Assembly: GCA_052390515.1 (NCBI GenBank)
Contig: JBQTGV010000011.1
Coordinates: 9,576-73,575 of the forward strand
Origin: Candidatus Eiseniibacteriota bacterium
Lineage (GTDB): Bacteria; ARS69
Reading direction: 5' to 3'
Length of the DNA: 64,000 nt
Shown: piece after piece, positions 14,804-22,760 of the stretch
Position numbering within the stretch: the stretch's first letter is position 1
How the letters are laid out: the number at the start of each line of letters is the position of its first letter
Notes under the pieces: generated by a model
What the model saw: the letters and a program-made list of their open reading frames with translations, nothing else
Databases searched by the model: none
Told to the model about the DNA's origin: nothing
Program-made: the position numbers and the translations under genes

Positions 14804-15646
14804 GTGAGGGATCCTCGTGGGGTCTGGATGGCTGCCGGCCCCGTTGCCGTCGTCATCGCCGCTGCCACCGCCGCCCTGCTCTTTTCCACGCAGGGCGCCC
14901 GGGCCGAGGAGGGCTGGCTCGGCGTCGTCTTCGCCGATCAGGCGGTGGAGCTGTCGGCCGAGGCGGCCGGGACCGTCGCCGCGTATCACGCCCGTCTCGG
15001 GGACCTTGTCCGCACGGGTCAGCCGGTCGTCGCTCTCGAGTCGGAGGAGCTGCGCTCCGCGCGGGCCGGGTCCCAGGCCGCGCTCGACGCGGCGCGAGCG
15101 CGGGCGGAGAAGGCCGACGCCGAGCTCGGCGACGCCACGCGGATGGTCGAGCGGCGTCGCGAAGCGCCGGATCTCTTTTCCAGCGAGGAGATCGCGAAGC
15201 TCGAGTCCCGGCACCGCGTGGCCGAGGCGGAGCTGGCCGCGGCGCGGTCCGCGGTGGCCGAGCGGGAGGCCGCGCTTCAGGAGATCGAGAGACAGCTCGG
15301 CGGGATGACGCTGCGCGCGCCGTTCGACGGATCCGTGGCGCTCGCCCTGCGCGAGGTCGGCGACCGCGTCGCCGCGGGCGAGGCGCTCGTCCGGCTCATC
15401 AGCCGCGGCGATCCGTGGATCCGCTTCGCCGTGCCGTCGAGCGAGGCGGCGGGCGTGGCGGCGGGTGGCGCCGTGCGCGTGACGCTTCCGGGCGGCGCGC
15501 AGAGCTGGAGCGCTCAGGTGCGGCGCGTGGCGCCCGAGATCGATCCCGCGACCGACATGATCTTCGCGGAGGCGGTGCTGACGCTCGCGGCGGGGGAGGC
15601 GGGGCCGAGGGCGGGGGAGGTGGTGCGGGTGAGGGCCGGAGGCTGA
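14804..15646 (+). CDS. HlyD-family periplasmic adaptor (membrane-fusion protein), short form
   Basis: N-terminal TM 'MAAGPVAVVIAAATAALLF'. A lipoyl-like 'GDLVRTGQPVVALES' hairpin. A long coiled coil. A C-terminal beta-barrel 'LRAPFDGSVALALREVGDRVAAGEALVRL'. Confidence 0.65.
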   Translation: MRDPRGVWMAAGPVAVVIAAATAALLFSTQGARAEEGWLGVVFADQAVELSAEAAGTVAAYHARLGDLVRTGQPVVALESEELRSARAGSQAALDAARARAEKADAELGDATRMVERRREAPDLFSSEEIAKLESRHRVAEAELAAARSAVAEREAALQEIERQLGGMTLRAPFDGSVALALREVGDRVAAGEALVRLISRGDPWIRFAVPSSEAAGVAAGGAVRVTLPGGAQSWSAQVRRVAPEIDPATDMIFAEAVLTLAAGEAGPRAGEVVRVRAGG

Positions 15647-15664
15647 CGGCGTCGGGTCACGCGC

Positions 15665-17872
15665 TCATATCGCCCGCGCGCCGACCAGCTCGGCGTAGTG
15701 CCCCCCCCGCGCCACGAGCTCGTCATGAGTCCCCCGCTCCACGAGCTGCCCGCGGTCCATCACCAGGATCACGTCGGAGTCCAGGATCGAGCTGAGCCGG
15801 TGCGCGATGACGATGCGCGTGCAGTCCAGCGCCCGCAGGTTCTGCTGGATCTTGCGCTCGGCCAGCGCGTCCAGGTGGCTGGTGGCCTCGTCCAGCACCA
15901 GGATCGGCGGTCGCCTGAGCAGCGCCCTCGCCAGCGCGATCCGCTGTCGCTGTCCGCCCGCCAAGCTCCCGCCGCCGGACGCCACCGGCGTCTCGTAGCG
16001 CAGCGGCATCTCCAGGATGTCGTCGTGGATGTGCGCCAGCTCCGCCGCCCGCTGGATGTCGGCCAGCGGCGTCGCGGCGTCCACCATGGCGATGTTCGTG
16101 CGGATGGTCCCTGCGAAGAGGAACGGATACTGCGGCACGAAGCCGACCTGCCGCCGGATCGAGCCGAACTCGTAGTGCGAGAGATCCCGGTCGTCGTACA
16201 GGATCTTGCCCTTGACCGGCTCGTACAGCCCGACCAGCAGCCGCGCCAGCGTCGACTTGCCCGACCCGCTGCGCCCGACGATGGCCACCTGCGCTCCGCG
16301 CGGGATCGTGAGGCTCACGCCGTCCACCGCCCAGGGCGCGGCCTCGCTGTAGCGGAACGAAACGTCGCGCAGCTCGATTCCCCCGGCGAGCGGCGGCGCC
16401 GCCGTCGTCGTCGTGCCCTGCTGCTCCGGCGCGTTCTCCAGCACGTCGTCGACGCGCTCCACGTAGCTCCCGAGGAGCTGGAACTGCAGCGCGGTCTGCA
16501 CCAGCGACGACAACGGCCCCAGGAACCCCGCGGCCAGCGCGTTCATGGCCAGCATGGTGCCCAGCGTGAGCTCACCCGCGAGCGTCAGGTGCGCGCCGTA
16601 GCCGAGCAGCACGAGCGGCGAGGCGGTCGCCAGCGCACTCAATGACGAATCCACCAGCGCCGCGAGCTTCGCCCTGCGGATGGAGATGTTCATCACGTCC
16701 ACGAGCAGGTTGGACGACTGCTCCAGCGCCCTTCGCTCCGCGCCCGTCGTCTTCAAGGTCTCGATGCCCTCGATCATCTGCACCTGGAAGTTGGACGACG
16801 CCGCCTGCGCCTGCAGGTTTTCGGTCATGAGCTCCCGGTAGCGGCGGCGCGTCCCCAGGTAGATGGCCACGCGCAGCGCTCCCAGCGCCAGCACGACGAG
16901 CCCGAGCCCGGCGTGGGTGAGCAGCAGCACGATCAGGTAGCCCGTCACGAGCAGTCCGTCGAGCACCGCCGACATCGCCCCGGAAGTGAGCATCTCGCGG
17001 ATGGCGGCGTTACTGTTGAGGCGCATCACCAGGTCGCCGGTCTGTCGGAGCTGGAAGTACGAGAACGGTAGGCGCAGGAGGTGCTCGAGGAAGTCCAGCG
17101 TCATCTGCACGTCGAGCGCCGTTCGCAAGTGCAGCAGGAGGTGCGCGCGCAGGAACGAGGCGAAGAAGCTGAACAACGTGATCCCGGCGATGCCCACGGC
17201 CAGCACCTGCAAGAGGTGCAGGTCGGCGCGCGGGACGACGCGGTCGACGACGGCACCGGTGAGCACCGGCAGCGCCAGTGCCAGCACCTGGGCGAAGAGC
17301 GAGACGACGACGATGCGGCTCAGGAGCCCGGAGTGCGCCAGTACCTTCGCCACGTAGCGGCGCACGCGAGACTCCCCGCGCGGCACCGCCTCGAAGCCGT
17401 GCGACGGCTCGAGCTGCAGCGCCACGCCGGTGAACGCCTTGCTGAAGTCGTCGTGCGGGATGAGGCGGCGGCCGGCCGCGGGATCCACGATCTCGACGCC
17501 CTTGCGGCCGATGCGGTCGAGCACCACGAAATGCTTCATCTGCCAGTGCAGGATGGAACCGGTCTTCAAGTAGTCGAGGTCCGAGACGTCCAGGCGCACC
17601 GCCTGCCCGCGCAGACCGAACTGGGCCGCGCACTCCACGATGGCGAGCGCGTTCACGCCGTCGCGGCCGGCGAACAGCTTGTCGCGCACTTCGTCCAGCG
17701 TCGTCTCCCGACCGTGGTAGCGCAGGACCATGGCCAGGCATGCCGCGCCGCAGTCGGTGACGTGGAGCTGCTGCACGTAGGGAACGTGCCGGCGCTTCGC
17801 GCGCGCTTCACCGATGCGCTTGACCGCGGGGAATCGATCCGCGAGCGAGCCCTTCGCCGGGCCGTCGGTCAC
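15665..17872 (-). CDS. Peptidase-C39-domain ABC transporter (bacteriocin/double-glycine peptide processing exporter)
   Basis: 735 aa. The N-terminal C39 domain has catalytic Cys and His ('VTDCGAACLAMVLRYHG', 'HFVVLD'). Six TM helices follow, then an ABC ATPase (Walker A 'GRSGSGKST', signature 'LAGGQRQR', Walker B 'ILVLDEATS'). Confidence 0.9.
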   Translation of the reverse strand: MTDGPAKGSLADRFPAVKRIGEARAKRRHVPYVQQLHVTDCGAACLAMVLRYHGRETTLDEVRDKLFAGRDGVNALAIVECAAQFGLRGQAVRLDVSDLDYLKTGSILHWQMKHFVVLDRIGRKGVEIVDPAAGRRLIPHDDFSKAFTGVALQLEPSHGFEAVPRGESRVRRYVAKVLAHSGLLSRIVVVSLFAQVLALALPVLTGAVVDRVVPRADLHLLQVLAVGIAGITLFSFFASFLRAHLLLHLRTALDVQMTLDFLEHLLRLPFSYFQLRQTGDLVMRLNSNAAIREMLTSGAMSAVLDGLLVTGYLIVLLLTHAGLGLVVLALGALRVAIYLGTRRRYRELMTENLQAQAASSNFQVQMIEGIETLKTTGAERRALEQSSNLLVDVMNISIRRAKLAALVDSSLSALATASPLVLLGYGAHLTLAGELTLGTMLAMNALAAGFLGPLSSLVQTALQFQLLGSYVERVDDVLENAPEQQGTTTTAAPPLAGGIELRDVSFRYSEAAPWAVDGVSLTIPRGAQVAIVGRSGSGKSTLARLLVGLYEPVKGKILYDDRDLSHYEFGSIRRQVGFVPQYPFLFAGTIRTNIAMVDAATPLADIQRAAELAHIHDDILEMPLRYETPVASGGGSLAGGQRQRIALARALLRRPPILVLDEATSHLDALAERKIQQNLRALDCTRIVIAHRLSSILDSDVILVMDRGQLVERGTHDELVARGGHYAELVGARAI

Positions 17873-18810
17873 GAGCCGCGCTCCAGCAGCTCACGCAGTC
17901 CTGGCACGAGCGCGACGAGCAGCTTCTCGCGGCGCACCGCGACTTCCGCCTCCGCGGCCATGCCGGGAAAGAAGCGATGCTCCCGCCCTCCGGCGCGGAA
18001 GGTGGGGTCGACCAGCGGCGCGTGCGCGAAGACCACCGGTCCGGAGATCGACACGGCGTCCCCGAGCTCGGTGCCGAGGTAGCGCTGCACCGCGCCCGGA
18101 CCGACCACCTCCTCGCCGACGGTGGCGATCTCCGCGTCGACGTACGCGTGCGAGTAGCCCGGTACTTCCAGCCGCATGACGAGACCGGGGCGAAGCAGCG
18201 GGCGGTAGCTTCCCGGCAGGAACGCGACGACCGCGAGCCCGCCCTCTTCCGTGGAGAGCGTGAGCACGCGGTCGCCGGCGGAGAGGAGCTGGCCCGGACG
18301 GATGCGAAGGTCCTGGACGCGGCCGTCGTGCGGTGCCGCGACAATGCGCTCCTCGAGCCGTGCGAGCGCTTCCACCATCGCGGGGCGGGCGGCGGCGGCG
18401 GCGGCTCGCGCGGCCTGATCCCCCGGATCCCGTAGCACGCGCACGAGCTGCATCTCGAAGTCGGACCGCGCCGCGTCGGCCGCGCTGCGCTCCGCGCCGG
18501 CGTAGAACCGCACCAGCTCCTGTCCGGCGGTGACGGCGTCCCCCGGCGCGACGAGCACCTCGTCCACCGTCCCGGCGACGCGCGCGGTCAGGTCGATCTG
18601 TCCCTCGGTGCGCACCACCGCCGGACCGGACGCGTACTCGTCCACGCTGCCGAAGAAGCCGTAACCGAGCGCCGCCACGAACGCGACGACCAGGACGTGG
18701 TACGTCCACCGCGTCCAGCGGTCTGAGTTCCGCAGAACGGCGCCTTCGCCTTCCCGGCCGCGCGCCGCTTCGCGCAGCGCTTCCTCGCGGAAGAGGTCGC
18801 TCGGAGTCAC
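17869..18810 (-). CDS. HlyD/CvaA-family secretion adaptor for the C39-ABC exporter
   Basis: 313 aa. N-terminal 'LFREEAL' followed by TM 'YHVLVVAFVAALGYGFF', a coiled coil, and C-terminal 'GYSHAYVDAEIATVGEEVV'. A 4-nt ATGA overlap with the ABC gene. Confidence 0.8.
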   Translation of the reverse strand: MTPSDLFREEALREAARGREGEGAVLRNSDRWTRWTYHVLVVAFVAALGYGFFGSVDEYASGPAVVRTEGQIDLTARVAGTVDEVLVAPGDAVTAGQELVRFYAGAERSAADAARSDFEMQLVRVLRDPGDQAARAAAAAARPAMVEALARLEERIVAAPHDGRVQDLRIRPGQLLSAGDRVLTLSTEEGGLAVVAFLPGSYRPLLRPGLVMRLEVPGYSHAYVDAEIATVGEEVVGPGAVQRYLGTELGDAVSISGPVVFAHAPLVDPTFRAGGREHRFFPGMAAEAEVAVRREKLLVALVPGLRELLERGS

Positions 18811-18881
18811 AGCTCCGGGATTCTAAGGACTCCCGGTCGGCCTTGCGAGCCCTGCTTCGCGGCGGCGGTCTCGATCGGCCG

Positions 18882-19355
18882 TCAGCCCTGCGAGCCCTGC
18901 TTCGCCATCTCCGCCATACGCCGGTCCAGCTCCTCCGGGCTGACGTCCTCGACGTGCGTGGCCAGCGTCCAGCGGTGGCCGAAGGGGTCGGTGAACGTGC
19001 CGGAGCGGTCGCCGTAGAACTGATCCTGCACCGGGCGCTCCTCCTTCGCTCCGGCGCGGACGGCGCGGGCGAAGGCCTCGTCCACCTTCTCCACGTAGAT
19101 CATCAAGTGCACGGGCGTCCCGCCGAGGGTCTTCGCGCTGCGAACGTTCATCGCGGGATGCTCGTCGGCCAGCATGATGCGCGCGTCCCGGATGAGCAGC
19201 TCGGCGTGGCCGACCTTCCCTCCCGGCGAAGGGATCCGCATGAGCTCCGTCGCTCCGAGGGCCTTTCCGTAGAACTCGATCGCGGCGTTGGCGTCGTGAA
19301 CGATGAGATACGGCGTGACGGTCTGGTACTCGTCGGGAATCGGCTTGACTGTCAT
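18882..19355 (-). CDS. VOC-family protein (glyoxalase / bleomycin-resistance / PhnB-like)
   Basis: 157 aa. 'VTPYLIVHDANAAIEFYGKALGATE...GKVGHAELLIRDARIMLADEHP' is typical of PhnB/VOC proteins. Confidence 0.85.
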   Translation of the reverse strand: MTVKPIPDEYQTVTPYLIVHDANAAIEFYGKALGATELMRIPSPGGKVGHAELLIRDARIMLADEHPAMNVRSAKTLGGTPVHLMIYVEKVDEAFARAVRAGAKEERPVQDQFYGDRSGTFTDPFGHRWTLATHVEDVSPEELDRRMAEMAKQGSQG

Positions 19356-19367
19356 GGATGACCTCCT

Positions 19368-19730
19368 TCAGCGCCCTGCGGCGGGCGCGTGTCCGTACTT
19401 CTGCGTGGCGAAACCGACGATCAGCCCGAGCACGGTGCCCGGCAGCATGATCTCCAGGTAGTAGTGGTTGCCGCTCGCGTCGGGCATCGCGGCGACGAGC
19501 CAGGATAGCAGGAGCCCGACCACGAGTCCCGCGCCGAGCCCCACGGCGAGCGACTTCACGCGGCGGGAGACCGCGCCGACGACGAGACCGGTGATCAGCC
19601 CCTTCGCCGTCGAGCCGATGACGATTCCGGTGAGCATCGGCTTGACTTCCGGTGCCGAGAGCAGCGCGGAGAATCCGTCGATGATCCCGAGAATGCCGCC
19701 GAGCACGAGGCCGAGGACGGGCTTGCTCAT
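19368..19730 (-). CDS. Small glycine-zipper membrane protein, paralog B (120 aa)
   Basis: The internal ATG overlaps the stop of paralog A (ATGA). Paralogous over its full length to the upstream gene: 'LGLVLGGILGIIDGFSALLSAPEV...GIVIGSTAKGLITGLVVG' versus 'LGILLGTALGALDGSTAFVSAPEL...GIVLGSTAKGLVVGLVTG'. Confidence 0.6.
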   Translation of the reverse strand: MSKPVLGLVLGGILGIIDGFSALLSAPEVKPMLTGIVIGSTAKGLITGLVVGAVSRRVKSLAVGLGAGLVVGLLLSWLVAAMPDASGNHYYLEIMLPGTVLGLIVGFATQKYGHAPAAGR

Positions 19731-20098
19731 CGGGACACCGCGGGGCGGCCCCAGCGAACGGCCGCGTAACCGGTCAAGAGGCCCGTCAGGCATCCCGGCA
19801 AAATGATCTTCCAGTAGTACGACGCGTTCTCGTAGTACGTCGCGTTCATGTGCGCGATCGGAGCCGCCAACGCGAGCGCCACGACGAGTCCGACGAGCGC
19901 GCCGGTCGGGAACGAGCCCGTCTTGCGCACGAGGAATCCGGTGACGAGTCCCACGACGAGCCCCTTCGCCGTCGAGCCCAGCACGATGCCGAGCAGCTCG
20001 GCGCGCAGCTCCGGCGCAGAGACGAACGCGGTGCTGCCGTCGAGCGCCCCGAGCGCCGTACCGAGCAGGATTCCGAGGAGCGGTCGATTCATCCCCAC
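19727..20098 (-). CDS. Small glycine-zipper membrane protein, paralog A (123 aa)
   Basis: A strong GGAGGTGGGGA Shine-Dalgarno sequence lies 7 nt upstream. Three predicted TM helices rich in GxxxG/AxxxG. Tandem paralog of the next gene. Confidence 0.6.
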   Translation of the reverse strand: MGMNRPLLGILLGTALGALDGSTAFVSAPELRAELLGIVLGSTAKGLVVGLVTGFLVRKTGSFPTGALVGLVVALALAAPIAHMNATYYENASYYWKIILPGCLTGLLTGYAAVRWGRPAVSR

Positions 20099-20137
20099 CT
20101 CCTTCCGAGCTTCCTTTCCACGACGCGCCGGATTCGT

Positions 20138-21052
20138 TTACGTCCCGGCGAACAAAAAGACGAGAGCGCGCACGACGACGTAGGCGAGCACGAGCAGGAT
20201 GGCCGTCCGGTACCTTCGCGCCCAGCGCCCGAGGCGGTCCAGCACTCCCTCGCGGTAGGCGCTGACCGGGTCCCCGTCGATGAAGCGGGTGACGTCCCTG
20301 GCCAGCTCGTCGACGCTCTCGTAGCGCCGTGCCGGATCGTCGGCTCCGGCACGCTCGCGGATGGCCCGCGCCGCCCTGGGGGCCGGGCCTGCCCCGTCCA
20401 GCAAGTGCCCGAGAATGGCGCCCAGGGCGAAGATGTCGCTCTTGGCGTCGGCCAGGTCGGAGCGCCCGCGGGCCTGCTCCGGCGCCATGTACCCGGGCGT
20501 GCCCAGCACGGTGCCGGGCTCCTCGCCGTCGCGCGCGCCCAGCACCCTCGCGACGCCCCAGTCCATGATCAGCACTTCCCCGAACCGCCCGACCATCACG
20601 TTCGCGGGCTTCAAGTCCCGGTGCACGACGCCGTGCGCGTGCGCGAACGCGACCGGCTCGCAGATGCGCAGGAAGAGCCGGAGCCGCTCCGGAAGGCTGT
20701 CGATCCCGCGCACGTGCTCGTCGAGCCGGCTCCCGCGAACGAGCTTCATCGAGTACCACGCGCGCCCGTCCCCGAGGCGCCCGAAGTCATGCACCGGAAC
20801 GATGCCGGGATGTTCGAGCCGCGCCAGGATTCTCGCCTCGTGCAGCAGTGGCGGATGTCCGGCGTTGCCGCGAGGATCGTTCAGCACCTTGATCGCCACG
20901 TCCCGGTCGAGCTGCCGGTCGGTGGCGCGGTAGACGGCGCCCATGCCCCCACGCCCGATCGGCTCGCGGATCTCGTAACGCGGATCCTCGAGCTCCGGCC
21001 AATCGAGGGCGGCGCGGAGGTGCCGGACCGTGTCGTCGGAGAGCCAGGTCAC
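20138..21052 (-). CDS. Tail-anchored Ser/Thr protein kinase (Hanks-type), no sensor domain
   Basis: The GTG start overlaps the sigma-factor stop (GTGA). It carries 'IGRGGMGAVYRA', 'VAIKVL', 'HRDLKPANV', 'DWG', 'GTPGYMAPE' and a C-terminal TM 'TAILLVLAYVVVRALVFLFAGT'. The long upstream extension of the ORF (to 21985) lies in the sigma gene's alternate frame and is rejected. Confidence 0.85.
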   Translation of the reverse strand: MTWLSDDTVRHLRAALDWPELEDPRYEIREPIGRGGMGAVYRATDRQLDRDVAIKVLNDPRGNAGHPPLLHEARILARLEHPGIVPVHDFGRLGDGRAWYSMKLVRGSRLDEHVRGIDSLPERLRLFLRICEPVAFAHAHGVVHRDLKPANVMVGRFGEVLIMDWGVARVLGARDGEEPGTVLGTPGYMAPEQARGRSDLADAKSDIFALGAILGHLLDGAGPAPRAARAIRERAGADDPARRYESVDELARDVTRFIDGDPVSAYREGVLDRLGRWARRYRTAILLVLAYVVVRALVFLFAGT

Positions 21053-21804
21053 GGGTTCTCGCTCCCGAGGAGGTCGCGCGCTTCCTCCCGGAACTCCGCG
21101 TCGCTCGCGCACAGCTCCCGCAGGCGGTCCAGGACGATGCCGCGGAAGCGCTTGCGCACGGCGTGCAGCCGGTTCGTCACTGTGGTCACGTCCAGCCCGT
21201 GCTCGCGTGCGAGGTCGCCGTACGATACGCGCTCCGAGGCACCCGGCCCCTCCAGATCGTAGCGGCGGAACATGGCGAAGGCCGACTGCCTGCCTTCGGC
21301 CTCGCAGCGCGCGCGGAGCTCGTCCACCGCCAGCGCGAGGAGGCTGCGGACCCACTCGCGGTGGAAGAGCGTCTCCGGATCGGCGAAGTCCGGGACGGCG
21401 TGCGCGGCCAGCTCGCCTTCCGCCGTCTCGAAGTCGAGCGGCACGTGGCGAACGTCGCCGCCGCGCTTCAAGCGCCGCAGGGCCTTGCGCTCGTTGGAGA
21501 CGTAGCCGTCGAGACAGGTGCGCAGCCAGGTGCGGAACTTCGCCTTGCCCGGGTCGTACCGGGCGAGGATCTCGCGATCGATGGCCGAGGCGAAGAAGCC
21601 CTGCGTCAGGTCCTTCGCCTCCTCGTTGTCGGCCTTCCAGCAGAGGCGAAGGTACTTGTAGACCGGCTTCCAGTAGCTCGCCACCAGCACGTCGAGCGCG
21701 CGCCGGCGCTCGTCCGAATCGGGGCTGCCGGTGGCGCGGACGACGGAAAGCCGGGTCTCCGGAAAGCGGTCCCGGGCGCCGCCCATGTCGGTGTCGCGCT
21801 CCAT
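21049..21804 (-). CDS. ECF-type RNA polymerase sigma-70 factor, translationally coupled to the Ser/Thr kinase
   Basis: Sigma2 region 'DLTQGFFASAI...FRTWLRTCL' and sigma4 HTH 'SYGDLAREHGLDVTTVTNRLHAVRKRF'. No anti-sigma gene is adjacent. The STK gene follows immediately. Confidence 0.85.
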   Translation of the reverse strand: MERDTDMGGARDRFPETRLSVVRATGSPDSDERRRALDVLVASYWKPVYKYLRLCWKADNEEAKDLTQGFFASAIDREILARYDPGKAKFRTWLRTCLDGYVSNERKALRRLKRGGDVRHVPLDFETAEGELAAHAVPDFADPETLFHREWVRSLLALAVDELRARCEAEGRQSAFAMFRRYDLEGPGASERVSYGDLAREHGLDVTTVTNRLHAVRKRFRGIVLDRLRELCASDAEFREEARDLLGSENP

Positions 21805-21893
21805 GAGTCCTCAGGGTAGCACGCTCCGGGGGCGCGTCACGGCATCCGGTGATATCCTGCCGCGGGCGATTGGCCGGAGGGACTCCCGTGAGC

Positions 21894-22760
21894 ATGATCC
21901 AGACCGCGCCTCGCCTGGCCGCGCTCTTCACCGATCCGCGCAGCCGCCCGATCGGCGTCTTCGATTCCGGCGTCGGCGGGCTCACCGTGCTGTCCGCGCT
22001 CCGTGACGCGCTTCCCGGAGAGTCGCTGATCTACCTCGGCGACACGGCGCGGCTGCCCTACGGCACGAAGAGCTTCTCCACGGTCACGCGCTACGCGATC
22101 CAGGCCGCGCGCGTGCTCGTGGATCAGGGGATCAAGCTGCTGGTGGTGGCGTGCAACACCGCGTCGGCGCTGGCGCTCGACGATCTGGCCATCGAGTTCT
22201 ACGACGTTCCGGTGATCGGCGTGCTGCGTCCCGGGGCGGACGCCGCCTGTCTCGGCTCGCCGACCGGGCGAATCGCGGTCATCGCCACGGAGAGCACGAC
22301 GTCCCACGGCGCCTACGAGCGCGAGATCCGCCGCATCCGCCCCGAGGCGCGCGTCGTGTCCCGCGCGTGCTCGCTCTTCGTGGCACTGGTGGAGGAGGGC
22401 TGGACCAAGGGGCCGATCGTGAAGGCCGTCGCGCACGAGTACCTGGATCCGATCTTTGCCGGGGTGGGCGGCGGGGTGGGCGCGCCCGACTGTCTCGTGC
22501 TGGGCTGCACGCACTTCCCGGTGCTCGCCGAGCTGCTGCAGGAAGTGACCGGCCCGGACGTCATCATCGTGGACTCCGCGCGGACCACCGCGGAGGCGGT
22601 GCGCGAGGAGCTGCGCAAGCGCAACCTCGGGCGCACCGACGAGGCCCCGGCCACGATCCGGCTGATGGCGACCGATTCGCCGGCGCGCTTCGCGCGCGTC
22701 GCCGCCAACCTCATCCCGCGGGAGATCCTCCCGGACACGATCGAGCTCGTCGATCTCTGA
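21894..22760 (+). CDS. murI: Glutamate racemase
   Basis: 'PIGVFDSGVGGLTV', 'LVVACNTAS', 'LGCTHFP' catalytic motifs. A GGAGGG Shine-Dalgarno sequence lies upstream of the ATG at 21894. The ORF start at 21849 is possible but less supported. Confidence 0.9.
   Translation: MIQTAPRLAALFTDPRSRPIGVFDSGVGGLTVLSALRDALPGESLIYLGDTARLPYGTKSFSTVTRYAIQAARVLVDQGIKLLVVACNTASALALDDLAIEFYDVPVIGVLRPGADAACLGSPTGRIAVIATESTTSHGAYEREIRRIRPEARVVSRACSLFVALVEEGWTKGPIVKAVAHEYLDPIFAGVGGGVGAPDCLVLGCTHFPVLAELLQEVTGPDVIIVDSARTTAEAVREELRKRNLGRTDEAPATIRLMATDSPARFARVAANLIPREILPDTIELVDL

What the first reader, a model, noticed from the sequence alone, without database searches (positions are those of the whole stretch)
19368..20098. 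Tandem ATGA-coupled paralogous small glycine-zipper membrane proteins inside the kinase/exporter operon
Two proteins of 123 and 120 aa are clearly paralogous over their full length. They share blocks such as LGxxLGxxLGxxDG, SAPE and GIVxGSTAKGLxxGLVxG. They are hydrophobic with repeated GxxxG. The second start codon overlaps the first stop. The first has a near-perfect Shine-Dalgarno sequence.

They could be immunity proteins, exporter accessory subunits or a phage-shock / stress membrane module. They do not resemble double-glycine leader peptides, so they are not the exporter's cargo.
Basis: seen in the sequence. Interest (0 to 1): 0.5.

Follow-up and report, generated by a model that had tools for sequence, protein, structure and literature searches.

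The report
Membrane-protein pair of a sigma/kinase module
The two small glycine-rich membrane proteins are real paralogues from an undescribed family that almost always sits directly behind a sigma-factor gene and a sensor-less protein kinase gene in uncultured soil bacteria, so they belong to that signalling unit and not to the neighbouring peptide exporter.

Summary
Two minus-strand genes, A (20092-19727, 121 aa) and B (19730-19368, 120 aa), overlap by ATGA. They are 45% identical (E 2e-24) and each has four hydrophobic helices and 9-10 GxxxG motifs. Both are under purifying selection (dN/dS 0.16 and 0.20). Neither matches any Pfam, NCBIfam, PADLOC or PDB family, including PF04226.

The family has at least 668 clusters at 50% identity, all from MAGs or metagenomes. 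It is the near-obligatory third gene of a trio: ECF-like sigma factor, then tail-anchored Hanks Ser/Thr kinase, then 4TM protein. The trio is present in 64 of 66 family-seeded genome loci and in 42 of 44 sigma-seeded metagenome loci. The C39-ABC/HlyD exporter is linked only in the closest relatives.

A conserved 30-nt bipartite, promoter-like motif (AAAGGAAT-N9-CGTTGTAAAGAAC) occurs only between the kinase stop codon and the 4TM start codon. The window copy is at 20110-20139.

The kinase has no sensor domain, and its membrane anchor carries an invariant Arg. The 4TM proteins carry near-invariant membrane-embedded Asp18, Ser40 and Lys43.

Best reading: the 4TM proteins are the module's conserved transcriptional output. 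Probably they are also the kinase's intramembrane partner, for input or feedback. That second step is inferred, not shown.

The parts
19727..20092 (-). Gene A: 121-aa four-helix inner-membrane protein, 'A-type' subfamily with a long periplasmic loop NATYYENASYYWK.
   Evidence: ORF and sequence. Homologues all start MNRPLL. AlphaFold2 pLDDT 94 with four helices. dN/dS 0.16 against L077.
19368..19730 (-). Gene B: 120-aa paralogue, 'B-type', the mainstream form of the family.
   Evidence: 45% identical to A, E 2e-24. 1811 clusters at E<=1e-10. Its nearest relatives are the single kinase-adjacent copies of Acidobacteriota and Gemmatimonadota. dN/dS 0.20.
19727..19730 (-). ATGA stop/start overlap of A and B, implying translational coupling. 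B has no Shine-Dalgarno sequence of its own.
   Evidence: Sequence. The same 4-nt overlap is present in L077, L078 and L163.
20098..20102 (-). Shine-Dalgarno GGAGG, 5 nt upstream of the ATG of A.
   Evidence: Sequence.
20110..20139 (-). Conserved bipartite promoter-like motif: AAACGAAT ccggcgcgt CGTGGAAAGGAAG (family consensus AAAGGAAT-N9-CGTTGTAAAGAAC). It begins within the kinase stop codon.
   Evidence: It is the only PWM hit of at least 14 bits in the 64-kb window on either strand; shuffles give 0. All hits of at least 18 bits in 763 kb of family-seeded loci lie at this position. In an independent sigma-seeded set, 28 of 29 hits of at least 16 bits in 334 kb lie at this position.
20138..21052 (-). 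Hanks-type Ser/Thr kinase, 304 aa, with no extracytoplasmic domain.
   Evidence: Pkinase E 1.5e-35. VAIK, HRD, DWG and APE motifs are visible in the translation. The GTG start overlaps the sigma stop codon as GTGA.
20141..20206 (-). C-terminal tail-anchor helix of the kinase, TAILLVLAYVVVRALVFLFAGT, containing the AY..xR motif (Tyr and Arg in the membrane).
   Evidence: Present in the kinase tails of all loci except the frameshifted L032. Tyr188 and Arg192 are invariant in alignment A2.
21049..21804 (-). Divergent ECF-like sigma factor, 251 aa, with an N-terminal FPxTRxS motif, region 2.2 EAKDLTQGFF and a KRGG linker motif.
   Evidence: Sigma70_r2 E 3.7e-6. TIGR02937 E 2.7e-10, below its cut-off. 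Alignments.
18882..19355 (-). VOC/glyoxalase-family protein, 157 aa, 12 nt downstream of B. A recurrent but not universal downstream companion.
   Evidence: Glyoxalase E 1.1e-18. Also follows the family gene in L001-L003, L021, L077, L088, L132 and L161.
15665..18810 (-). HlyD-like adaptor (17869-18810) and C39-peptidase ABC exporter (15665-17872). These are context only and not part of the conserved module.
   Evidence: Pfam. Present after the pair only in L077, L078 and the P0003 contig. Never adjacent elsewhere.

Best explanation
A and B are two anciently diverged paralogues of an uncharacterised family of about 120-aa, four-helix, N-in/C-in inner-membrane proteins. The family is the third component of a conserved three-gene signalling module.

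The three components are:
1. A divergent ECF-like sigma factor.
2. A Hanks Ser/Thr kinase, translationally coupled to the sigma gene, whose only membrane or extracytoplasmic part is a 22-residue C-terminal anchor.
3. The 4TM protein.

Shown:
- The trio is co-inherited in both directions across at least six phyla.
- The 4TM gene is preceded by the module's only conserved cis element, a strand-specific 30-nt bipartite motif placed between the kinase stop codon and the ribosome-binding site.
- Both window paralogues are under purifying selection.

Inferred, step 1: the motif is the target promoter of the cognate sigma factor. The kinase activates sigma, and sigma then drives A-B (and VOC, plus the exporter in this lineage). 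The 4TM proteins would thus be the module's conserved output.

Inferred, step 2, which is weaker: the kinase has no sensor domain and buries an invariant Arg in its anchor helix. The 4TM proteins bury near-invariant Asp18, Ser40 and Lys43. Some family members carry an added periplasmic ligand-binding-type domain. From this I infer that the 4TM protein associates with the kinase anchor in the membrane and supplies signal input and/or feedback, in the manner of MgrB on PhoQ. A and B may form a hetero-oligomer that widens or tunes this input.
For: **Synteny**
- The order sigma, kinase, family gene holds in L001-L004 and in 64 of 66 family-seeded genome loci.
- In the reverse test seeded with sigma, every locus with more than 230 nt downstream has the kinase. 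42 of 44 loci with enough room have the family gene next.
- Kinase-4TM adjacency survives even where sigma is displaced by three inserted genes (L159).
- The exporter is absent outside the nearest relatives.

**Cis element**
- The motif is found in 51 of 65 distinct kinase-4TM gaps, with a fixed 9-10 nt spacer.
- It is exclusive to that position in 763 kb of loci and in the 64-kb window.
- It was re-found in loci not used for training: 28 of 29 hits.
- Sigma genes themselves lack the motif. In Acidoferrales, sigma70-like TTGTCA-N17-TAAACT boxes lie upstream of sigma instead.

**Kinase**
- Catalytic motifs are intact.
- The tail anchor AY..xR is conserved in all loci.

**4TM protein**
- Among 278 members, Lys43 is conserved in 100%, Ser40 in 98.5% and Asp18 in 98%.
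- The four-helix model is confident.

**Fusions**
- P0109 (4TM, a fifth TM helix and a periplasmic AHSA1/SRPBCC domain) and P0087 lie in the same sigma/kinase context.

**Selection**
- dN/dS is 0.16 for A and 0.20 for B.
Against: - No experiment or transcript map supports the promoter reading.
- If GGAAT and CGTT are read as canonical ECF -35 and -10 boxes, their 9-10 nt spacing is far from the usual 16-17 nt. Either the -10 is the A(A/T)AGAAC part, or the motif is an operator for another protein.
- About a fifth to a third of loci lack a recognisable motif.
- No physical-interaction evidence exists.
- Asp18 and Lys43 could simply pair with each other inside the bundle, or form a transport or ion site.
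- Orphan copies exist without a kinase (L033, and P0120 in L076).
- The sigma factor keeps the acidic DxxD motif. The only mechanism demonstrated for sigma phosphorylation, restoring a missing negative charge, therefore cannot be assumed.
Confidence: 0.5

Rival explanations
1. The proteins are pure stress effectors. The sigma/kinase pair senses its signal by other means, and A/B are only its regulon. They might stabilise the membrane, or act as a small transporter or efflux pair resembling paired SMR proteins (about 110-120 aa, four helices, a membrane-embedded acidic residue in helix 1, tandem overlapping genes). They would have no role in signalling.
For: - The gene has its own promoter-like motif, separate from sigma-kinase.
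- Downstream companions look like small-molecule detoxification or binding proteins: VOC/glyoxalase in several clades and cupin in others.
- There is an invariant polar triad within the membrane.
- The described relative EcfP/PknT controls an antibiotic-resistance regulon (PMC8999054).
Against: - Effector genes of regulators usually vary between phyla, but this one is fixed next to the kinase in about 95% of loci in both directions.
- The kinase would be left with no input domain at all.
- There is no sequence or fold similarity to SMR or any transporter.
- The distribution of Lys and Arg favours a fixed N-in/C-in topology.
- Fusions are to periplasmic ligand-binding-type domains rather than to transporter parts.
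Confidence: 0.3
2. The proteins are bacteriocin immunity proteins or accessory subunits of the downstream C39-ABC/HlyD peptide exporter.
For: They lie on the same strand as the exporter with short gaps and no terminator-like site. The arrangement is kept in the closest relatives.
Against: - The exporter is absent from all other loci carrying the family: 64 genome loci, 42 metagenome loci, L001-L004, L161 and L163.
- No double-glycine precursor gene lies in the operon.
- The family's universal neighbour is the kinase.
Confidence: 0.03
3. The proteins are members of a known small stress-membrane-protein family (GlsB/YeaQ/YmgE Transgly_assoc PF04226, the YMGG glycine zipper, or phage-shock PspD/G-like proteins) acting as general envelope-stress proteins.
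For: They have a small, Gly-rich, multi-helix composition.
Against: - PF04226 does not hit even at E up to 10, and Gly-zipper_YMGG scores E = 4.
- There is no NCBIfam hit.
- A profile of 38 members finds nothing in the PDB.
- They have four helices and 120 aa, against three helices and about 80 aa for PF04226 (the latter from my own knowledge).
Confidence: 0.03
4. The proteins are a membrane tether or substrate. The 4TM protein would be phosphorylated by the kinase on its single cytoplasmic loop, or would hold sigma or the kinase at the membrane like an unconventional anti-sigma factor.
For: The TM2-TM3 loop is conserved as [RK][RK]xxS, with Ser60 in 92% of 278 members. No conventional anti-sigma gene is present in the module.
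Against: The cytoplasmic surface is only about 6 loop residues plus short termini, too small for a known anti-sigma domain. The basic residues are also explained by the positive-inside rule. There are no data on phosphorylation.
Confidence: 0.07

Closest known systems
ECF sigma factor / Hanks kinase pairs of group ECF43 (EcfP-PknT of Vibrio parahaemolyticus; EcfK-PknS of Xanthomonas citri)
   Same: An ECF-type sigma gene lies next to a membrane-bound Hanks Ser/Thr kinase with no anti-sigma factor. The kinase is the presumed activator of sigma (PMC8999054, PMC13147305).
   Different: - Here the sigma factor keeps the acidic DxxD of region 2.2 ((E/D)AxDLTQGFF) rather than the uncharged STTA/QTTA with the phospho-Thr.
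- The kinase has no extracytoplasmic domain, whereas PknS has periplasmic TPR repeats and ECF43-linked kinases carry varied sensor domains.
- A third, 4TM gene is co-inherited.
- The conserved cis element lies in front of that third gene, not in front of sigma.
Small membrane-protein modulators of sensor kinases (MgrB-PhoQ, SafA-PhoQ, MzrA-EnvZ, LiaF-LiaS, Abx1-CovS)
   Same: In these systems a small membrane protein, often itself induced by the pathway, acts on a kinase through membrane contacts and gives feedback or extra input. This comes from my own knowledge; Abx1-CovS appeared. It is the logic I propose here.
   Different: Those partners are histidine kinases that have their own sensor domains. 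There is no homology. The modulators have one or two helices (or an Abi domain), not a 4TM Gly-zipper bundle. An interaction is unproven here.
Paired small multidrug resistance (SMR) transporters such as EbrAB/YkkCD, and EmrE
   Same: They are about 110-120 aa with four helices and a conserved acidic residue in helix 1. Tandem, often overlapping, genes encode hetero-dimer partners (from my own knowledge).
   Different: No HMM or fold match was found. The family has an invariant Lys in helix 2, a biased N-in/C-in topology, and regulatory rather than transporter neighbours.
GlsB/YeaQ/YmgE (Transgly_assoc, PF04226)
   Same: They are small Gly-rich stress-linked membrane proteins.
   Different: No hit was found, and the helix number and length differ.
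Tim17/Tim22/Tim23 four-helix GxxxG proteins
   Different: All scores are far below the thresholds. The generic helical-bundle matches score as well or better.

Membership tests
Transgly_assoc / GlsB-YeaQ-YmgE (PF04226) | Match to the Pfam HMM at or above the gathering score | tested here: not met
   The family is not listed for A or B even at E up to 10.
YMGG-like glycine zipper (PF13441) | Match to the Pfam HMM at or above the gathering score (28.9 bits) | tested here: not met
   A scores 7.7 bits, E = 4. B gives no hit.
ECF43-type sigma/STK system | Sigma gene adjacent to a Hanks-type kinase gene | tested here: met
   Sigma and kinase overlap by GTGA. The adjacency holds in every locus with room for it.
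ECF43-type sigma/STK system | Acidic DxxD of sigma region 2.2 replaced by uncharged residues including the phospho-acceptor Thr (STTA/QTTA) | tested here: not met
   The window has EAKD-LTQGFF. The 60-sequence consensus is EDAxDLTQGFF, with Asp65 invariant in the 21-sequence alignment A3. The criterion is taken from PMC13147305 and PMC8999054.
ECF43-type sigma/STK system | Kinase phosphorylates sigma and this activates transcription | not testable with these tools
   This needs biochemistry.
ECF sigma factors in general | Sigma2 and sigma4 domains recognised by the ECF models (TIGR02937, Pfam Sigma70_r2 and r4) | tested here: inconclusive
   Sigma70_r2 scores 27.1 bits against a cut-off of 24. 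There is no r4 hit. TIGR02937 scores 40.1 bits, below its cut-off of 42.9, but spans residues 36-221. Assignment to a numbered ECF group was not possible because no classifier was available.
Small multidrug resistance (SMR) transporters | HMM match or fold match to EmrE-like proteins | tested here: not met
Cargo of the C39 exporter (double-glycine leader peptide) | Short N-terminal leader ending in GG/GA, followed by a secreted core peptide | tested here: not met
Both proteins are four-helix integral membrane proteins from residue 4 onward.
Immunity or accessory protein of the exporter | Co-occurrence with the exporter genes across relatives | tested here: not met
   The exporter is present only in L077, L078 and the P0003 contig. 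It is absent from all other loci.

The most novel reading that the evidence does not exclude
The trio is a previously unrecognised three-component signalling system, widespread in uncultured soil phyla (Acidobacteriota, Gemmatimonadota, Eisenbacteria, Krumholzibacteriota, Phycisphaerae, Myxococcota). The receptor is split into two polypeptides. A 4TM Gly-zipper protein, sometimes carrying a periplasmic ligand-binding domain, acts as the sensor. It assembles with a tail-anchored, sensor-less Hanks kinase through buried Arg/Asp-Lys contacts, comparable to the way immune receptors assemble with their signalling chains. The kinase activates a dedicated sigma factor, whose single conserved target promoter drives the sensor gene itself, closing a feedback loop. 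The A/B tandem would then be a hetero-oligomeric sensor.
Probability: 0.3. Interest if true: 0.75.

Novelty: new variant of a known kind. Interest (0 to 1): 0.55.

Why it matters
How kinases that are paired with ECF sigma factors perceive their signals is still open. A review states that PknT 'somehow senses' polymyxin stress (PMC8999054).

This module strips the problem down. The kinase has no sensor domain. There is one invariably linked membrane protein with a handful of invariant buried polar residues, and one conserved cis element. That yields a small set of directly testable predictions:
- an Arg/Asp pairing between kinase anchor and 4TM protein;
- motif-dependent transcription;
- feedback of the 4TM protein on the kinase.

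The work also defines a new protein family with no database annotation. It has at least 668 clusters at 50% identity and about 1800 at 90%, and it is abundant in soil Acidobacteriota.

For this window specifically, it re-assigns the two genes from the exporter to the regulatory module.

Tried and rejected
- **Family searches.** Pfam, NCBIfam and PADLOC searches of A and B found nothing. The PADLOC hits of the kinase to PD-T4-6 reflect generic kinase-domain similarity only.
- **RNA families.** An Rfam search of 18700-22000 found nothing relevant. The motif halves are not complementary, so an RNA hairpin reading was dropped.
- **Complex prediction.** The proposed contact is therefore untested.
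- **Promoter and terminator scan.** The sigma70 promoter and terminator scan of 15000-22500 found no promoter and no terminator on the operon strand.
- **Literature.** I found no description of a 4TM partner in ECF-STK systems. The supplementary group descriptions of the ECF reclassification paper are not held.
- **Cultured hosts.** All named hits in three protein searches and one cluster look-up are MAGs or metagenome contigs.
- **Origin of B.** Neighbour-joining placement of B was ambiguous. Its nearest distances are to primary copies of other phyla, but it clustered with the secondary copies, possibly through long-branch attraction. I therefore make no claim about how B arose.

Full report
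**1. The observation**

On the minus strand, gene A runs from ATG 20092 to TGA 19727 and encodes 121 aa. Gene B runs from ATG 19730 to the stop at 19368 and encodes 120 aa. The mechanical ORF list starts A at GTG 20098, giving 123 aa. That codon lies inside the Shine-Dalgarno sequence GGAGG (20102-20098), and all homologues start MNRPLL at the ATG. The stop of A and the start of B overlap as ATGA (19730-19727).

The two products are 45% identical over their whole length, E 2e-24. Each has 9-10 GxxxG motifs and four hydropathy peaks. An AlphaFold2 model of A built on 38 homologues has pLDDT 94 and four long helices. By the positive-inside rule, which I applied by inspection, the termini and the TM2-TM3 loop are cytoplasmic.

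**2. No known family**

The family is nevertheless large. An exhaustive profile search finds 668 clusters at 50% identity with E up to 1e-3, and 359 with E up to 1e-10. B alone has 1811 clusters at 90% identity with E up to 1e-10, against 72 for A. Every named hit is 'hypothetical protein' from a MAG or metagenome. The window itself matches a Candidatus Eiseniibacteriota MAG.

**3. Genomic context decides what the genes belong to**

In the window the gene order is as follows:

| Gene | Coordinates (minus strand) |
|---|---|
| ECF-like sigma | 21804-21049 |
| Hanks kinase | 21052-20138 (GTGA overlap with sigma) |
| A | 20092-19727 |
| B | 19730-19368 |
| VOC/glyoxalase | 19355-18882 |
| HlyD | 18810-17869 |
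| C39-ABC exporter | 17872-15665 |

I fetched 66 genome loci seeded with the 4TM family. In 64 of them the family gene directly follows a homologous kinase (46-62% identity), which in turn follows a homologous sigma factor (42-59% identity). The two exceptions are a contig end (L068) and an orphan extra copy (L033) in a genome that also has the full trio.

I then ran the reverse test, seeding a metagenome scan with the sigma factor. Every locus with more than 230 nt downstream has the kinase. Of 44 loci with enough room, 42 have the family gene next. One exception, L127, has a different 770-aa double kinase. The other, L158, lacks the 4TM gene. In L159 three genes are inserted between sigma and kinase, but kinase and 4TM remain adjacent.

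The hosts span Acidobacteriota, Gemmatimonadota, Eisenbacteria, Krumholzibacteriota, Phycisphaerae and Myxococcales. The exporter, by contrast, follows the pair only in the closest relatives, namely L077, L078 and the P0003 contig. The genes therefore belong to a sigma/kinase module, not to the exporter.

**4. A conserved cis element in front of the 4TM gene**

The kinase-to-4TM gaps share a bipartite motif, AAAGGAAT-N9(10)-CGTTGTAAAGAAC. It often starts at the kinase stop codon and ends 7-53 nt before the start codon. It scores above 8 bits in 51 of 65 distinct gaps.

With a PWM, all hits of at least 18 bits in 763 kb of loci (both strands) lie at this position on the sense strand. The window has exactly one hit of at least 14 bits, at 20110-20139 (AAACGAAT ccggcgcgt CGTGGAAAGGAAG). 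Shuffled windows give none. Those loci trained the PWM, so I repeated the scan on the sigma-seeded metagenome loci. There, 28 of 29 hits of at least 16 bits in 334 kb lie in the same gap.

No copy lies upstream of sigma. In Acidoferrales the sigma gene instead has a sigma70-like TTGTCA-N17-TAAACT. The two halves are not complementary, and Rfam finds nothing, so this is a DNA element.

Its 30-nt span with a non-conserved fixed spacer fits a promoter. I infer it is the cognate sigma factor's target. There is a caveat. Reading GGAAT and CGTT as canonical ECF boxes gives a 9-10 nt spacing rather than 16-17 nt. Either the -10 is the A(A/T)AGAAC part, or the element is an operator.

**5. Features suggesting a membrane partnership**

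The kinase has intact VAIK, HRD, DWG and APE motifs. It ends in a 22-residue helix with nothing beyond it. That helix carries AY..xR, a Tyr and an Arg inside the membrane, in every locus except one frameshifted copy.

Across 278 full-length family members, including secondary and orphan copies, the conservation is as follows:

| Residue | Location | Conservation |
|---|---|---|
| Lys43 | TM2 | 100% |
| Ser40 | TM2 | 98.5% |
| Asp18 | outer half of TM1 | 98% |
| Ser60 | cytoplasmic [RK][RK]xxS loop | 92% |

Some family members add a fifth helix and a C-terminal domain, which by topology is periplasmic. The domain is AHSA1/SRPBCC in P0109, THAP4/nitrobindin-like in P0120, and unassigned beta-rich domains in P0087, P0094 and P0097. 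P0109 and P0087 lie in the same sigma/kinase context. Such ligand-binding-type additions suit a sensor.

An AlphaFold test of the kinase-anchor/4TM contact could not be run. The partnership remains an inference.

**6. The paralogue pair**

A belongs to a derived 'A-type' clade with a longer, strongly conserved periplasmic loop (MNAxYYxNxSYYWKIILPG). In several single-copy genomes (L001-L012) this type is the kinase-adjacent gene. B resembles the mainstream type found next to the kinase in Acidobacteriota and Gemmatimonadota.

The A-B tandem is kept in L077 (83% and 90% identity). It is also kept in L161 and L163, where A is only 66-71% identical and no exporter follows. dN/dS against L077 is 0.16 for A and 0.20 for B, against 0.10-0.15 for the neighbours. 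Both genes are functional and the duplication is old.

Independent second copies occur in Acidoferrales and related lineages: 8 of 66 genome loci and 9 of 42 metagenome loci.

**7. Comparison with the known**

The closest described systems are ECF43 sigma/kinase pairs, EcfP-PknT and EcfK-PknS. There, phosphorylation of a Thr replaces the missing acidic DxxD of region 2.2, and the kinases carry extracytoplasmic sensor domains (PMC8999054, PMC8103513, PMC13147305).

Here the sigma factor retains DxxD ((E/D)AxDLTQGFF). The kinase has no sensor. A third gene is co-inherited and carries the conserved cis element. I therefore do not file the sigma factor under ECF43.

Functionally the proposed logic resembles small-protein modulators of sensor kinases such as MgrB-PhoQ. 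That resemblance comes from my own knowledge and is a lead, not a test.

**8. Verdict**

The best explanation is that the pair is the conserved output, and probably the intramembrane partner, of a sigma/tail-anchored-kinase module. My confidence in each step is:

| Step | Confidence |
|---|---|
| Membership of the module | about 0.9 |
| Motif is a sigma-dependent promoter | about 0.6 |
| Physical or functional partnership with the kinase | about 0.4 |

The main rival is a pure stress effector or small transporter (0.3). This is a new variant of a known kind of system. It is of moderate to good interest because it offers a minimal, testable case for how sigma-linked Ser/Thr kinases receive signals.

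Noticed in passing
window 21049-21052 (minus strand): The sigma stop codon and the kinase start codon overlap as GTGA, which implies translational coupling. The same 4-nt overlap is called in L001, L077 and other loci.
   Followed up: partly
window 21813-21818 (minus strand), 8 nt upstream of the sigma ATG at 21804: A -10-like TACCCT lies just upstream of the sigma start codon, and no Shine-Dalgarno sequence is evident. Relatives have TAGCCT or TATCCT at the same place (L005, L008, L021). The sigma mRNA may be leaderless or nearly so. Acidoferrales loci instead show TTGTCA-N17-TAAACT.
   Followed up: no
P0109 (L072 5001-5888), P0087 (L071 5001-5879), P0094, P0097, P0120 (L075, L076): Some family members are extended by a fifth helix and a C-terminal domain of 130-170 aa: AHSA1/SRPBCC, THAP4/nitrobindin-like, or unassigned. 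About 13 of 356 retrieved proteins exceed 200 aa, though some of these are frameshifted or chimeric calls rather than true fusions.
   Followed up: partly
A residues 56-60 (RKTGS) and B residues 56-60 (RRVKS); window about 19913-19927 and 19551-19565: The only cytoplasmic loop is conserved as [RK][RK]xxS, with Ser in 92% of 278 members. It could be a phospho-acceptor for the adjacent kinase, or simply positive-inside residues.
   Followed up: no
sigma residues 14-20 (FPETRLS) and 113-116 (KRGG); window about 21745-21765 and 21457-21468: The N-terminal extension carries an invariant FPxT and a nearly invariant Ser. The sigma2-sigma4 linker carries an invariant KRGG motif. These are candidate regulatory or phosphorylation sites, given that the DxxD motif is intact.
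   Followed up: no
window 15665-18810 (minus strand): The C39-peptidase ABC exporter keeps its catalytic Cys (DCGAACL) and sits with a HlyD adaptor, but no double-glycine precursor gene is obvious in the operon. The cargo is unknown. The arrangement is conserved in L077 at 93-94% amino-acid identity with dN/dS about 0.10.
   Followed up: partly
L024, L025, L029, L032, L036, L015 (about 100-200 nt upstream of the sigma genes); L025, L027, L052 (kinase-4TM gaps): Short tandem repeats of 6-12 nt fill several intergenic regions of Acidobacteriota loci. Examples are TTGCCGA, GGTCGAA, GTGAACCCTCGT and GAGCCGC units. In some gaps they replace the promoter-like motif.
   Followed up: no
L127 885-3197: A sigma factor of this family is followed by a 770-aa protein with two kinase domains, a central membrane helix and a Pro-rich tail, and no 4TM gene follows. 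This is a variant architecture in which the kinase has its own extracytoplasmic part.
   Followed up: partly
L001-L003, L021, L077, L088, L132, L161 (VOC); L072-L075 (cupin): Small VOC/glyoxalase or cupin genes recurrently follow the 4TM gene in different clades. This hints that the module's output deals with a small molecule.
   Followed up: partly
window 21849-22760 (plus strand): A glutamate racemase (Asp_Glu_race) gene is divergently transcribed from the sigma gene. The same neighbour is present in L001 and L077.
   Followed up: no
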